Shown here: piece after piece, positions 33,001 to 36,000 of the stretch | Position numbering within the stretch: position 1 is the first letter of the stretch | Layout of the letters: each line of letters opens with the position of its first letter | NCBI RefSeq assembly: GCF_001447785.1 | Contig: NW_015169819.1 | Location: forward strand, 215,500 to 279,499 | Reading direction: 5' to 3' | DNA: 64,000 bases | Source: Gekko japonicus | Lineage: Eukaryota | Made by a program: the position numbers

Positions 33001-36000
33001 ATAGAGGCAGGATTGCCTTATGGCAGGGGTGGCCAAACTGCAGCTCAGGAGCCACATGCGGCTCTTTCACACATCCTGGCAGGGTGACTGGGGAAGCAAA
33101 GGGATCAGGGATACTTCCCCAGCCAATGTTCACCTCCCTGGGTAAGCCTGAGGTTGGGGGGAGCAGAGAAAGAAAGCAACATTAACTTCAAATGCATTCT
33201 CAAAGCCACCACTCCCCCCCCCCGGCTTTGTACACCATGAGCAAGTACACCATGAGAAGTGATTCCTTTATCCTTTTGTACACCACGAGAAGTGATTCCT
33301 TTATCATACCATGTTCAGGCACATTCAGCAGCATCTCTGCTATTTTGTCCGTTGTGTTCAGGCCACTTGAACTTTTGGGCTCTTATTTGTTTTTAACTGC
33401 CTTTCTAATAAATACATGTATTTTTGTATATATGTTTTAACTAGGCTTTTAATATTGGCCTTTATTAGACTTCTTTCTTACCCTTTGTGGTTCTTGATAT
33501 TAAAAAGTGATTCAGGCTAAAAAGAACGACAAAGTGAATACAACAGACAAAAAGCCTTTAGCCCGACACAAAAGAAACACGGGACGTACTAAAACTAAGG
33601 ACAAGCGATTGCCCATAGGGAATAGATGAATACCAATACGGAATAATGAAGAGTAGGCTTGCCCATAGGGGATAATGGAGTACATAATTGCCAATAAAGA
33701 ATCCATAATAGCCAATAGAGAATCCATTCCTGCCCATAAGGAATAATGGAGAGGACGCTTGCCCATAGGGGATAAGGGCTCTTTAAAAACCTATGGCCGC
33801 CGCCATCGGCGGCAGCTGCAACAGCCGCGCGGGGGGTTTTTTTTTGAAATGTTCCCCCGCCTCCCTGAGCCCCGGGGTGGTGGCCTTGGACTCCTAGGGG
33901 CAAATTCCACAGCGGCTCAGGGAGGCGTGGGAACATTTCGCCCCCTCCGCAGCCGTTCCAGCTGCCGTGGCCATAACTTTTTAAAGAGACCTTAACAAGA
34001 GCTGGAGAAGCCGGAATGACCTCTTGTGTGTGATGTCTGAGCAGCATTGTGTCATGTGAGAGGTGGAATTTGCCCGTAGGAGTCCAAGGCCACCACCCCG
34101 GGGCTCAGGGGCATTGCCACTTGGACATCACACGCGAGAGGTGGGATTTGCCCCTAGGAGTCCAAGGCCACCACTGCGGGGCTCAGGGAGGTGGGGGAAT
34201 GTTTCGCCCCCTCCCCCTCGCGGCTGTTGCAGCTGCTGGCAACTGCGGCGGCGGCCATAACTTTTTAAAGAGCCCCTAACAAGAGGTGGGAGCCAGAATG
34301 ACCTCTAGCGTGTAATGTCCAAGCGGCAACGCCACCCCCCGCAGCCGTTGCAGCTGCCGCCGCCAATGTCAGCGCCCATAACTTTTTAAAGAGGCCCTAA
34401 CACGAGCTGGAGAGCCGGAATGACCTCTTGCGTGTCATTTTCACACGCGAGAGGTGGAATTTGCTCCTAGGAGTCCAAGGCCACCACCCCGGGGCTCAGG
34501 GAGGCGAGGGAATGTTCCCCCCCCCCCCGGGGCTGTTTGAGTGGTTGTTCGTCCCTGGTGGCAGCCATAACTTTTTAAAGAGCCCCTAACAAGAGCTGGG
34601 AGACCCAGAATGACCTCTTGCGCGAGAGGTGGAATTTGCCCCTAGGAGTCCAAGGCCACCCCCCCCCCAGGGCTCAGGGAGGCGGGGGAACGTTTCGCCC
34701 CCCGTCCCTGGTGGCAGCCATAACTTTTTAAAGAGCCCCTAACGAGAGCTGGGGGAGCCGGAATGACCTCTCGCGAGTGATGTCGGAACGGTGTTGCCTA
34801 TGAGCAATCATGGATTCTCTGTTGGCAGTTATGTACTCCCTTATCCCCTATGGGCAAGCGTCCTCACCATTATTCCTTATGGGCAGTCATGGATTCTGTA
34901 TTGGCATTATGGATTCTCTATTGGCATTTATGTACTGCACTATCCCCTCTGGGCAAGCCTACTCTCCATTATTCTCCATGAACACTCATGTATTCCCTAT
35001 GGGCAATCGCTGTCCTTAGTTGTAGTACGTCCCAAGAAACACTACATAGTGCTTACGTACCCCCTCTAGGAGACAGCCCTATAGAACTCATTTTCCCCTG
35101 AAGAAAATAAACTTTCTTGGGAGGGGCGACGCTGAGACAACAATACGCCCAAATCGGGCGGTTTAGGAAACAACAACCACCAAAAACAAATACAGCACCC
35201 CTAAAACGGGCAAGATGCTCTCCTCGCCACCCGGAAGTGTGTTGCCCTCCTCAAACATGGCGGGCGTGACACGTCACGGGCAGGCGAAGCGGGCGGTTCC
35301 GGGTGAAGGACAGCAGCGATGGCGGCGACTGCTGCGGAGACTGCGGCGCTGGACGCCTTGAAGCGGGGCGGCCCGGGAGCTGCCGAAGCACTCTTCGAGG
35401 CTCACACCGCGGCAGAACTGAGGGCAGTTGAGCGGCAGCTCCGCGCGGGCATCGAGGGGAAGCGCGAGGAGCTGCGGCAGATGGTCGGCGAGCGCTACCG
35501 GGACCTCATCGAGGCCGCGGACACCATCGCCGAGATGCGTCTCAGCGCCGAGCACCTCCTCGAGGCCGTGCGGGGACTCCAGCAGCGCCGCGCGCGAGGG
35601 CGAACCGGGCCGACCCCCTCCGCTCAGGGCAGCCGCCGTGGCGGCACCGGGATGCGGGCGCGAGAGCCTGCAGGGGCGCAACAGGTGGTGGACCCTGGGG
35701 GCGTGGTCGGGCCGGGCCGGGGGGAGGGCACTTGACGGGGGTGGGGCCAGTGCGACCAAGTAATGACTCCCTCCCCAGGCAACCCTCTCTAGCAGAACCT
35801 TTGCGGCTTTAATGTTTTAAAATGGGCAGAAATCCAACAAGTAAAGTTATCTATCTCAACAGAACAAAGTTTGGGTCCAGTGGCACCCTTAAGGCCAACC
35901 AAGTTTTATGCAAGGTATAAGCTTTCATGTGCACGCACAGTCCTTCAGATACAGTGAAACAGAATTTCCTCAACCATATAGGAAGAGAGTTCTTTATCTC

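What the first reader, a model, noticed from the sequence alone, without database searches (positions are those of the whole stretch)
33572..35042. Foldback DNA transposon with a 9-bp TSD abutting the COG1 promoter
Seen: a 1453-bp element with perfect TSD aagaaacac and ~200-bp TIRs, each holding four tgcccata(g/a)g subrepeats. The interior is GC-rich units marked by ccataactttttaaagag: five direct (33971, 34255, 34376, 34565, 34718) and one inverted (33776-33910), so the element is an asymmetric foldback with no transposase. Established: long G-initiated TIRs with 9-bp TSDs typify Mutator/FB elements and Merlin (GGNRM ends), both sparsely described in amniotes, and maize Mutator prefers gene 5' ends. 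Inference: this may be an undescribed squamate family that targets promoters. It ends about 200 bp from the ETS/YY1 core.
Basis: partly seen in the sequence, partly recalled or inferred. Interest (0 to 1): 0.72.

Follow-up and report, generated by a model that had tools for sequence, protein, structure and literature searches.

The report
Foldback DNA transposon beside gecko COG1
A 1.45-kb non-coding "foldback" jumping-gene copy with a perfect 9-base target duplication sits about 200 bases upstream of the COG1 promoter in a gecko genome; which transposon superfamily it belongs to, and whether that family seeks out promoters, could not be decided from this one window.

Summary
Window 33581-35033 is a 1453-bp element flanked by an exact 9-bp direct repeat. 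That 9-mer occurs nowhere else in the 64 kb. The inverted arms carry a repeated 10-bp motif at mirrored distances from each end. The GC-rich interior consists of five direct units and one inverted unit.

The symmetry axis is at 33911-33913 and there is no middle domain, so this is a classical asymmetric foldback.

There is no coding capacity. None of the 12 ORFs overlapping the element has a Pfam match. None of 389 ORFs in the window carries a transposase domain.

It lies 198 bp from the ETS-like site and 286 bp from the COG1 start codon. Exon 1 is 99% identical to Gekko kuhli COG1.

My reading is a non-autonomous cut-and-paste transposon moved in trans. The 9-bp duplication and GG(G) termini fit both Mutator/Foldback and Merlin, and a P/Galileo-like origin is not excluded.

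"Undescribed family" and "promoter targeting" are untested. No gecko genome, Dfam or Repbase was available. The window holds one full copy and one solo interior fragment (29346-29482), which is not at a recognised promoter.

The parts
33572..33580 (.). Left copy of the 9-bp target-site duplication (AAGAAACAC)
   Evidence: The 9-mer occurs only twice in the window, at the two flanks.
33581..33778 (+). Left terminal (flanking) domain. It is AT-rich (GC 0.43) and starts GGGACGTAC. It holds two ~100-bp sub-units carrying TGCCCATAGG-type motifs at 30, 80, 151 and 180 nt from the end, plus degenerate GCCAATA(A/G)AG copies.
   Evidence: searches (D7, D10, I1-I3, I24; 21-bp tandem repeat).
33779..33910 (-). 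Inner part of the left arm. It is one GC-rich unit in inverted orientation: a diverged A-head at 33779-33796, a linker, and the B core at 33846-33910.
   Evidence: I4, I5 97%, I8 98%, I10 97%, I14, I18, I19. alignment with the right end.
33846..33939 (.). Hairpin at the symmetry axis (33911-33913), where orientation switches from inverted to direct. It has a 26-nt stem that is 96% complementary.
   Evidence: I21. One search gives weak miRNA-precursor-like Rfam hits on both strands (37 bits against a gathering score of 100), as expected for a palindrome.
33914..34794 (+). Right-arm array of five direct GC-rich units. A-heads start at 33971, 34255, 34376, 34565 and 34718. B cores start at 34063, 34141, 34454 and 34629. 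Spacing is irregular (284, 121, 189, 153 bp) because B and linker parts are deleted or duplicated. Short palindromes sit at the A/B junctions.
   Evidence: (D1-D5, I16, I23). One search gives A units 84-88% identical to each other and B cores 84-98%.
34795..35033 (-). Right terminal (flanking) domain (GC 0.46), ending GTACGTCCC. It has a 99-bp period (1.9 copies) with motif copies at 29, 79, 108, 149, 178 and 228 nt from the end.
   Evidence: D6; period 99, score 260.
35034..35042 (.). Right copy of the 9-bp target-site duplication
29346..29482 (-). Solo fragment of the interior B unit with a duplicated 22-nt tail. No terminal domain lies nearby.
   Evidence: 85-91% identity over 59-88 nt, E down to 7e-29. 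(22-nt direct repeat). One search gives the B core 43-46 of 48, or 44 of 51, against the in-element copies.
35231..35735 (+). Context, not part of the element: the COG1 core promoter motifs and exon 1. CCGGAAGT is at 35231, ATGGCGG at 35257 and ACGTCA at 35271. The exon-1 ORF has its ATG at 35319.
   Evidence: motif positions. (PF08700, E 1e-15). (99% identity to Gekko kuhli COG1 over all 94 aa).

Best explanation
This is a non-autonomous, foldback-type cut-and-paste DNA transposon inserted at the upstream edge of the COG1 CpG-island promoter of a gekkonid gecko.

Shown by the sequence:
- It has two inverted arms with the same module order: terminal AT-rich domain, then A, linker and B units.
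- The left arm holds one GC-rich unit and the right arm holds five.
- There is no middle domain and no ORF with a known domain.
- A perfect 9-bp TSD flanks it.

Inferred mechanism:
- A transposase encoded elsewhere in the genome binds the TGCCCATAGG-type motifs. These sit at mirrored distances (about 30, 80, 150 and 180 nt) from both ends.
- The transposase synapses the two ends and cuts at the GGG/CCC termini.
- It integrates through a 9-bp staggered cut, and repair of that cut gives the duplication.
- The unequal unit number in the two arms comes from unequal exchange or replication slippage within the repeats.

Superfamily. The 9-bp TSD and G-initial long TIRs point to a Mutator/Foldback-type or a Merlin-type transposase. 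I could not separate these two, and P/Galileo-like remains possible.

Location. The position next to a promoter is one observation. It fits the open-chromatin bias that I recall for many cut-and-paste transposons (no call tested it). It is not evidence of family-wide targeting.
For: TSD:
- The exact 9-bp TSD is unique in the window, with a chance match of about 4e-6.

Arms:
- The arms align from the termini inward through the first GC-rich unit.
- The terminal domains are 88.7% identical.
- The whole element folds as one snap-back with paired ends (DNA minimum free energy -463.9 kcal/mol).
- Motif copies are mirrored in both arms.

Coding:
- 0 of 12 element ORFs have a Pfam match.
- There were no protein-level relatives for two element ORFs.

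Repeat-family membership:
- The interior unit recurs outside the element at 29346-29482. The interior is therefore a repeat-family sequence and not local unique DNA.

Literature, passages read:
- Foldback elements have flanking, tandem-repeat and inner TIR domains and 8-10-bp TSDs. Their repeats are also found outside the element (Tetris, PMC4079207).
- Muta1 has 8-9-bp TSDs, the terminal motif GGGTCTACCC and subterminal repeats that raise transposase binding and excision (PMC5499845).
- Merlin has TIRs of 24-462 bp, a terminal 5'-GG and 8-9-bp TSDs (PMC8101967).
- MULE TSDs are 8-11 bp (PMC6446971).
Against: - Only one complete copy was seen. Mobility, copy number and constancy of the TSD length are unverified, because no gecko genome could be searched.
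- No autonomous partner was found. 0 of 389 window ORFs of at least 55 aa carry a transposase domain.
- The two arms are only 88.7% identical in the terminal domain, so the copy is not very young or was never symmetrical.
- MULE transposases could not be confirmed in any vertebrate by Dupeyron et al. (PMC6446971).
- Mutator, Merlin and P were not among the six superfamilies found in Anolis (PMC3014272). This lowers the prior for each candidate superfamily.
- The role of the 10-bp motif as a transposase binding site is inference only.
Confidence: 0.87

Rival explanations
1. The element is specifically a Mutator/Foldback (MULE; Phantom- or Muta1-like) non-autonomous element. It would be mobilised by a MULE DDE transposase that binds the subterminal repeats.
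For: - The 9-bp TSD lies within the MULE range of 8-11 bp.
- The TIRs are hundreds of bp long and carry subterminal repeats.
- The GGG start resembles Muta1's terminal motif GGGTCTACCC.
- Nine-bp TSDs and foldback-like composite TIRs occur in Tm1, which has a Phantom-type transposase.
- The authors of Tetris assigned it to Mutator on the same grounds.
Against: - Dupeyron et al. could not confirm any MULE transposase in vertebrates and regard the Repbase vertebrate MuDR entries as misidentified.
- Mutator was not found in Anolis.
- Foldback architecture is polyphyletic.
- No MULE domain occurs among the 389 window ORFs.
Confidence: 0.33
2. The element is specifically a Merlin-superfamily non-autonomous element with unusually long, internally repetitive TIRs.
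For: - Merlin is defined in the passage read by 8- or 9-bp TSDs, a conserved terminal 5'-GG and TIRs of 24-462 bp. The element meets all three.
- Merlin is documented in vertebrates: stickleback, zebrafish, Xenopus and human.
- A DNA/Merlin class is reported in snake genome annotations.
- Tandem repeats occur inside some Merlin copies.
Against: - Merlin was not reported in Anolis.
- The passages I read describe no foldback-type Merlin.
- No IS1595-type DDE domain occurs in the window.
- The terminal GG rule is only two bases and is shared with Muta1.
Confidence: 0.33
3. The element is a P-superfamily, Galileo-like foldback. Its repeated motif would be the binding site of a THAP-domain transposase.
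For: - Galileo is a P-superfamily element with long, internally repetitive TIRs that hold several THAP binding sites.
- P and BuT5 in the Drosophila repleta group make 8- or 9-bp TSDs.
- The reverse complement of the motif (CCTATGGGCA) fits the THAP1 core TxxxGGCA.
- That core occurs 5 times in the left and 7 times in the right terminal domain, against 0.27 and 0.37 in shuffles. None of 2000 shuffles reached the observed count.
Against: - The excess only restates that the motif is repeated. The match to a 5-base core was found post hoc.
- THAP domains of different proteins recognise different sequences.
- Among 23 vertebrate genomes, P was reported only in platyfish and coelacanth.
- My recollection, not checked here, is that P-type ends do not start with GG.
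Confidence: 0.1
4. The family preferentially inserts at promoters.
For: - The one complete copy ends 198 bp from the ETS-like site and 286 bp from the COG1 ATG.
- It sits exactly where CpG observed/expected rises from 0.23 in the left flank to 0.89 in the right flank.
- I recall that Mutator and P elements prefer gene 5' ends.
Against: - There is one complete copy, chosen after the fact.
- The only other family fragment in the window (29346-29482) lies in the SSTR2-COG1 intergenic region, away from any recognised promoter.
- No genome-wide distribution could be computed.
Confidence: 0.2
5. It is not a transposon. It would be a local inverted duplication, an expanded palindrome, or a foldback assembly artefact that happens to be flanked by a direct repeat.
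For: - The structure is a near-complete palindrome with tandem units, which replication errors or chimeric reads can create.
- Only one copy with these termini is visible.
Against: - The 9/9 flank match abuts the inverted termini exactly (chance about 4e-6).
- The arms are diverged (88.7%) and differ by an indel of about 100 bp, unlike a fresh artefact.
- The flanks are unique sequence with a different composition.
- The interior unit occurs at a second locus.
Confidence: 0.03

Closest known systems
Tetris, a non-autonomous foldback transposon of Drosophila virilis (PMC4079207, passages)
   Same: - It has long TIRs with an outer flanking domain followed by tandem repeats.
- It has no coding capacity.
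- Its TSDs are 8-10 bp.
- Its internal repeats are also found outside the element, as with the solo unit at 29346-29482.
- Its superfamily was inferred only from TSD length.
   Different: - It is from an insect host, and no sequence similarity was tested or is expected.
- Tetris has a middle domain and regular 220-bp repeats. Here there is no middle domain and the units are irregular (121-284 bp spacing).
- Satellite-like arrays of the interior unit were not seen in this window.
Muta1, an active MULE of Aedes aegypti and a 'type 2 foldback' (PMC5499845, passages)
   Same: - Its TSDs are 8-9 bp.
- Its terminus starts with GGG.
- Its TIR is built of repeated short motifs separated by linkers. 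Those motifs were shown there to increase transposase binding and excision. This is the model for how the motifs here may work.
   Different: - Muta1 is autonomous (3198 bp). Its TIR is 145 bp, with nine 12-bp repeats that are 97% identical between arms.
- Here there is no transposase. The motifs are 21-50 bp apart in about 200-bp domains, and the arms are 88.7% identical.
- The arms here also carry GC-rich 120-280-bp units.
Tm1, a Mutator/Foldback family of root-knot nematodes (PMC3169594, passages)
   Same: - It has composite TIRs of variable length with internal repeats.
- Its TSDs are mostly 9 bp.
- It has many non-coding, MITE-like members.
- The two TIRs of one element are imperfect (93% on average).
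   Different: - It is from a nematode host.
- Its repeats are 13-15 bp and its terminal motifs are asymmetric.
- An autonomous Phantom-type copy is known for Tm1, and none is known here.
Merlin superfamily elements (PMC8101967, passages)
   Same: - TSDs of 8 or 9 bp.
- A conserved terminal 5'-GG.
- TIRs of up to 462 bp.
- Vertebrate hosts are documented.
   Different: - Merlin is defined by an IS1595-type DDE transposase, which could not be looked for outside the window.
- Foldback architecture was not described for Merlin in the passages read.
Galileo, a foldback-like P-superfamily element of Drosophila (PMC3688188, passages)
   Same: - It has very long, internally repetitive TIRs.
- Several short transposase (THAP) binding sites are spread through them.
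- The first site lies tens of bp from the end, not at the tip. Here the first motif is at 29-30 nt.
   Different: - Galileo encodes a P-type transposase.
- I recall its TSD as 7 bp. The paper that would confirm this (PMC2268567) was not held.
- Here the TSD is 9 bp and the ends start with GGG.

Membership tests
Foldback-type DNA transposon (structural class) | Long inverted arms built from internal repeats | tested here: met
   The arms are 330 bp and 405+ bp. They have about 100-bp sub-units in the terminal domains and GC-rich units further in.
Foldback-type DNA transposon (structural class) | Arms may differ in repeat number; the middle domain is small or absent; the single strand snaps back | tested here: met
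   There is one unit in the left arm and five in the right, with the axis at 33911-33913. The whole element folds with paired ends.
Foldback-type DNA transposon (structural class) | Flanking target-site duplication | tested here: met
   An exact 9-bp TSD that is unique in the window.
Foldback-type DNA transposon (structural class) | Dispersed multi-copy family with independent insertions | not testable with these tools
   No gecko genome was available. The window has 1 full copy and 1 interior fragment. The best match to the terminal domains outside the element has E 0.11.
Mutator / MULE superfamily (including Foldback, Phantom, Muta1-like) | TSD of 8-11 bp, typically 9 | tested here: met
   The TSD is 9 bp. 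The range is from PMC6446971.
Mutator / MULE superfamily (including Foldback, Phantom, Muta1-like) | TIRs commonly hundreds of bp, often with subterminal repeats | tested here: met
   compared with Muta1.
Mutator / MULE superfamily (including Foldback, Phantom, Muta1-like) | MULE DDE transposase in an autonomous relative that shares the termini | not testable with these tools
   0 of 389 window ORFs of at least 55 aa carry any transposase domain. The rest of the genome is out of reach.
Merlin superfamily | TSD of 8 or 9 bp | tested here: met
   The TSD is 9 bp. The definition is from PMC8101967.
Merlin superfamily | Conserved terminal 5'-GG and TIRs of 24-462 bp | tested here: met
   The ends read GGGACG... 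and ...CGTCCC. The arms are 198-405 bp, depending on where homology is taken to end.
Merlin superfamily | IS1595/IS1016-related DDE transposase in an autonomous relative | not testable with these tools
   None occurs in the window. The genome is not searchable.
P superfamily (Galileo-like foldback) | TSD of 7-9 bp | tested here: met
   Nine bp is the upper value reported for P and BuT5 in the repleta group.
P superfamily (Galileo-like foldback) | THAP-domain binding sites within the TIRs | tested here: inconclusive
   The motif fits the THAP1 core TxxxGGCA. THAP specificities differ between proteins, and the match was noticed post hoc.
P superfamily (Galileo-like foldback) | P-type (THAP plus RNase-H-like) transposase in an autonomous relative | not testable with these tools
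   None occurs in the window.
   The TSD is exactly 9 bp and cannot be shortened without breaking the terminal inverted match.
MITE | Small size, usually well under 1 kb (recalled) | tested here: not met
   The element is 1453 bp. Without the interior array, the two terminal domains alone would be MITE-sized.

The most novel reading that the evidence does not exclude
The element is a recently active, non-autonomous member of a genuine Mutator/Foldback (Phantom- or Muta1-like) lineage in a gecko. That would make it the first verifiable MULE-type family in an amniote, in a clade where Dupeyron et al. ask whether MULEs exist at all. It was probably acquired horizontally. Its termini would give a direct handle for fishing out the autonomous transposase. 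A further reading is that the family favours CpG-island promoter edges and delivers about 1 kb of CpG-rich, CCAAT-bearing sequence to them.
Probability: 0.2. Interest if true: 0.7.

Novelty: new member of a known kind. Interest (0 to 1): 0.4.

Why it matters
Foldback-type elements with 9-bp TSDs are well described in insects, nematodes and plants. My searches found no paper combining foldback, transposon and squamate. The three element motifs I searched for appear in no paper text.

The passages I read show where the three candidate superfamilies stand in vertebrates:
- Mutator, Merlin and P are absent from the Anolis catalogue.
- They are patchy across vertebrates.
- The very presence of MULEs in vertebrates is questioned.

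A clean copy with intact ends and TSD gives a concrete query for finding the autonomous partner in gecko genomes and settling which superfamily it is.

Locally, the insertion adds a 1-kb CpG-rich block (GC 0.60, CpG observed/expected 0.61, 56 CpGs) and a long palindrome directly upstream of a housekeeping promoter. This could affect COG1 regulation or local stability, and neither effect was tested.

If a Dfam or Repbase entry already covers it, the finding becomes a routine annotation.

Tried and rejected
1. Other copies in the window. blastn at word size 9 and word size 7 found only the solo interior fragment at 29346-29482. The best hits to the terminal domains had E of 0.11 or worse. One of these, at 30071-30134, lies in a different repeat with a 33-bp tandem duplication and I rejected it.

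2. Rfam on 29000-36500. It gave only sub-threshold miRNA-precursor-like hits, on both strands of the axis hairpin. I read these as a palindrome effect, not a gene.

3. Protein-level detection of family copies through spurious ORFs. The 169-aa ORF gave 0 scoring hits among 410 candidates. The 100-aa right-arm ORF gave 0 hits in 1.84 billion representatives. This is uninformative about novelty.

4. Pack-MULE-like gene capture in the interior. No Pfam match was found in any of the 12 element ORFs. The plus-strand interior ORFs were not sent to the large protein searches.

5. Transposase remnants anywhere in the window. 0 of 389 ORFs have one. The only mobile-element signal is a sub-threshold RVT_1 piece at 3625-3831.

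6. Two pattern scans of the prokaryotic genome-contig collection gave 0 matches. This only excludes such sequences in that collection.

7. Each terminal domain as an independent small element. By my reading, the two ends of one domain do not match each other in inverted orientation. I rejected this idea.

8. Intra-element homogenisation of the B core. I rejected this because the solo copy is as close to the in-element copies (86-96%) as they are to each other (84-98%).

9. Papers. PMC2268567 (Galileo in the P superfamily) and PMC2927773 (Phantom) are not held. PMC7397244 had nothing relevant. Supplementary tables of the cited papers were not opened.

Exon-sized ORFs were searched one by one and the joined step was left out.
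Full report
**What is there.** I read 33300-35500 directly and ran repeat finders on it. The element spans 33581-35033 (1453 bp). The nine bases AAGAAACAC lie immediately outside both ends, at 33572-33580 and 35034-35042. That 9-mer occurs only at these two places on either strand of the 64-kb window. A 9/9 match of two flanks has a chance of about 4e-6 at local base composition. 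The duplication cannot be lengthened. The base before the left copy differs from the last base of the element, and the base after the right copy differs from the first base of the element. The termini (GGGACGTAC... / ...GTACGTCCC) form a 23-nt inverted repeat that is 96% complementary (I24).

**Arm structure.** Left 33581-33910 matches right 34629-35033, with about 100 extra bases in the right arm. Each arm has two parts.
- An AT-rich terminal domain (GC 0.43 left, 0.46 right). It is built of roughly 100-bp sub-units (D6, D7, period 99, score 260).
- GC-rich units further in.

The terminal domains are 173/195 (88.7%) identical, with 20 mismatches (9 of them transitions) and 2 gap columns.

**The repeated motif.** The 10-bp motif TGCCCATAGG, allowing up to 2 mismatches, sits at 30, 80, 151 and 180 nt from the left end. 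It sits at 29, 79, 108, 149, 178 and 228 nt from the right end. Exact TGCCCATA(G/A)G occurs 4 times on the left and 3 times on the right, and twice elsewhere in the window.

**Interior.** The marker CCATAACTTTTTAAAGAG is at 33971, 34255, 34376, 34565 and 34718, all direct. A diverged inverted copy lies at 33779-33796. The units are composites of three parts.
- An 'A' part. These are 84-88% identical pairwise.
- A 'B' core. These are 84-98% identical pairwise. The left-arm copy is 97-98% complementary to three right-arm copies (I5, I8, I10).
- GC-rich linkers.

Parts are deleted or duplicated, which gives the irregular spacing of 284, 121, 189 and 153 bp. Orientation switches at 33911-33913, inside a hairpin (I21). 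The element is therefore a 330-bp left arm and a 1120-bp right arm with no middle domain. Folded as single-stranded DNA, the whole element snaps back with its ends paired (-463.9 kcal/mol; no shuffle control is available at this length).

**No coding capacity and no RNA family.**
- The longest ORF is 169 aa.
- 0 of the 12 ORFs of at least 55 aa that overlap the element have a Pfam match at E<=0.01.
- Rfam gives only sub-threshold miRNA-precursor-like hits on both strands of the axis hairpin (37 bits against a gathering score of 100). I read this as a palindrome effect.

**Context and host.**
- The ORF at 35307-35735 carries the Vps51/EXO84/COG1 N-terminal domain (E 1e-15).
- Its first 94 residues from the ATG at 35319 are 99% identical over full length to COG1 of Gekko kuhli and 97% identical to COG1 of Heteronotia binoei. 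Other squamates follow. The gene is COG1 and the host is a gekkonid gecko, not human.
- A somatostatin-receptor-2 ORF lies at 14841-15992 on the + strand.
- FAM104 exons lie on the - strand at 50991-51275 and 55464-55682.
- Exon-sized ORFs were searched one at a time. I did not build or search a joined spliced model.
- CCGGAAGT is at 35231, ATGGCGG at 35257 and ACGTCA at 35271. The element therefore ends 198 bp before the ETS-like site and 286 bp before the ATG.
- The insertion site is exactly where CpG observed/expected changes from 0.23 (500-bp left flank) to 0.89 (right flank) and 1.01 (exon 1). The window average is 0.26.
- The element's interior has GC 0.60 and CpG observed/expected 0.61, with 56 CpGs.
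- The immediate flanks are not repeated elsewhere in the window.

**Other copies.** Within the window there is no second terminal domain. The best hits have E of 0.11 or worse. The hit at 30071-30134 belongs to a different repeat. One solo piece of the interior B unit lies at 29346-29482 in the opposite orientation. It is 85-91% identical over 59-88 nt. Its B core is as close to the in-element copies (86-96%) as they are to each other. The interior is therefore family or repeat sequence that also exists outside the inverted ends.

**What could not be searched.**
- No eukaryotic genome collection, Dfam or Repbase was available.
- Two scans of the prokaryotic genome collection found nothing.
- Two spurious ORFs from the element found no protein relatives.
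- No transposase domain occurs in any of the 389 N-free stop-to-stop ORFs of at least 55 aa in the window. ORFs containing N were dropped beforehand.

**How it most likely works.** The sequence shows the anatomy of a foldback-type cut-and-paste transposon. The mechanism is inferred.
- A transposase encoded elsewhere binds the mirrored short motifs in both arms.
- It pairs the ends and cleaves at the GGG/CCC tips.
- It integrates through a 9-bp staggered cut, and repair of that cut leaves the duplication.

The papers I read (passages only) support this model for comparable elements.
- In Muta1 (8-9-bp TSD, terminal GGGTCTACCC, nine 12-bp subterminal repeats), more repeats gave stronger transposase binding, cleavage and excision (PMC5499845).
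- In Galileo, THAP-domain sites lie about 70 bp from the end and again inside the TIR tandem repeats (PMC3688188).

The unequal unit numbers in the two arms fit the structural dynamism described for foldbacks (PMC4079207; PMC3169594).

**Which superfamily.** A 9-bp TSD, G-initial ends and long TIRs fit two superfamilies.
- MULEs: TSD 8-11 bp, TIRs commonly hundreds of bp (PMC6446971). Tm1 and Tetris are examples.
- Merlin: TSD 8-9 bp, terminal 5'-GG, TIRs of 24-462 bp (PMC8101967).

Foldback architecture itself is polyphyletic. Galileo carries a P-type transposase and FARE a MULE one. P and BuT5 can make 8-9-bp TSDs (PMC3698922). The reverse complement of the motif fits the THAP1 core TxxxGGCA (PMC2879526; counts). 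That is a five-base, post hoc match, and THAP specificities differ between proteins, so I give it little weight.

Priors cut against all three.
- Among 23 vertebrates, MuDR was seen only in human, Merlin in four species and P in two (PMC4350176).
- A snake review mentions a DNA/Merlin class (PMC8303610).
- Dupeyron et al. could not confirm any vertebrate MULE transposase.

I therefore leave Mutator/Foldback and Merlin about equal (0.33 each), P at 0.1, and the rest to other or unknown.

- 'Undescribed squamate family' could not be tested. My only evidence is negative and weak. No paper combines foldback, transposon and squamate. No paper text holds three element motifs. Supplements were not opened.
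- 'Targets promoters' rests on one complete copy. The solo fragment is not at a recognised promoter.

**Verdict.** This is a real and cleanly bounded foldback-type, non-autonomous DNA transposon next to the COG1 promoter of a gecko. It is a new member of a known kind unless a catalogue entry exists. Interest is moderate, because its termini could be used to find out whether a MULE, Merlin or P-type transposase is or was active in geckos.

Noticed in passing
window 29346-29482: A solo, inverted fragment of the element's interior B unit with a duplicated 22-nt tail and CpG observed/expected 0.75. No terminal domain lies nearby. It shows that the interior repeat exists outside the inverted ends.
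   Followed up: partly
window 29150-29186, matching 26961-26996, 39493-39528 and 10712-10748: A 36-37-nt stretch just left of the solo fragment recurs three more times in the window at 95-100% identity. It is probably the end of an unrelated interspersed repeat.
   Followed up: no
window 29960-30134: A repeat-like stretch with an A/T-rich head and a 33-bp tandem duplication at 30023-30086. It gave chance-level hits to the terminal domains through a shared GCCAATAG string. From recollection only, it resembles squamate SINE-like repeats.
   Followed up: partly
window 62699-64000 (+): An open frame of 433-434 aa that runs off the window end, with no Pfam match. Its identity is unknown.
   Followed up: no
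window 50991-51275 and 55464-55682 (-): Two exon-sized ORFs with the FAM104 domain (E 4e-34 and 3e-8). With the SSTR2-like ORF at 14841-15992, this gives the gene order SSTR2 - COG1 - FAM104. From recollection, that matches the mammalian arrangement.
   Followed up: partly
window 3625-3831 (-): A sub-threshold reverse-transcriptase (RVT_1) fragment (25.1 bits against a cut-off of 29.6). It is probably a decayed retroelement.
   Followed up: no
window 33633-33716 and 34900-34924: CCAAT and ATTGG strings inside the degenerate copies of the terminal-domain motif: three in the left domain and two in the right. The element therefore carries CCAAT-box-like sequences to within about 100-1400 bp of the COG1 promoter. 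The regulatory meaning is untested.
   Followed up: no
window 5337-5405 and 59955-60005: Two runs of N (69 and 51 bases). They were left as they are, and ORFs containing N were excluded from the Pfam scan.
   Followed up: no
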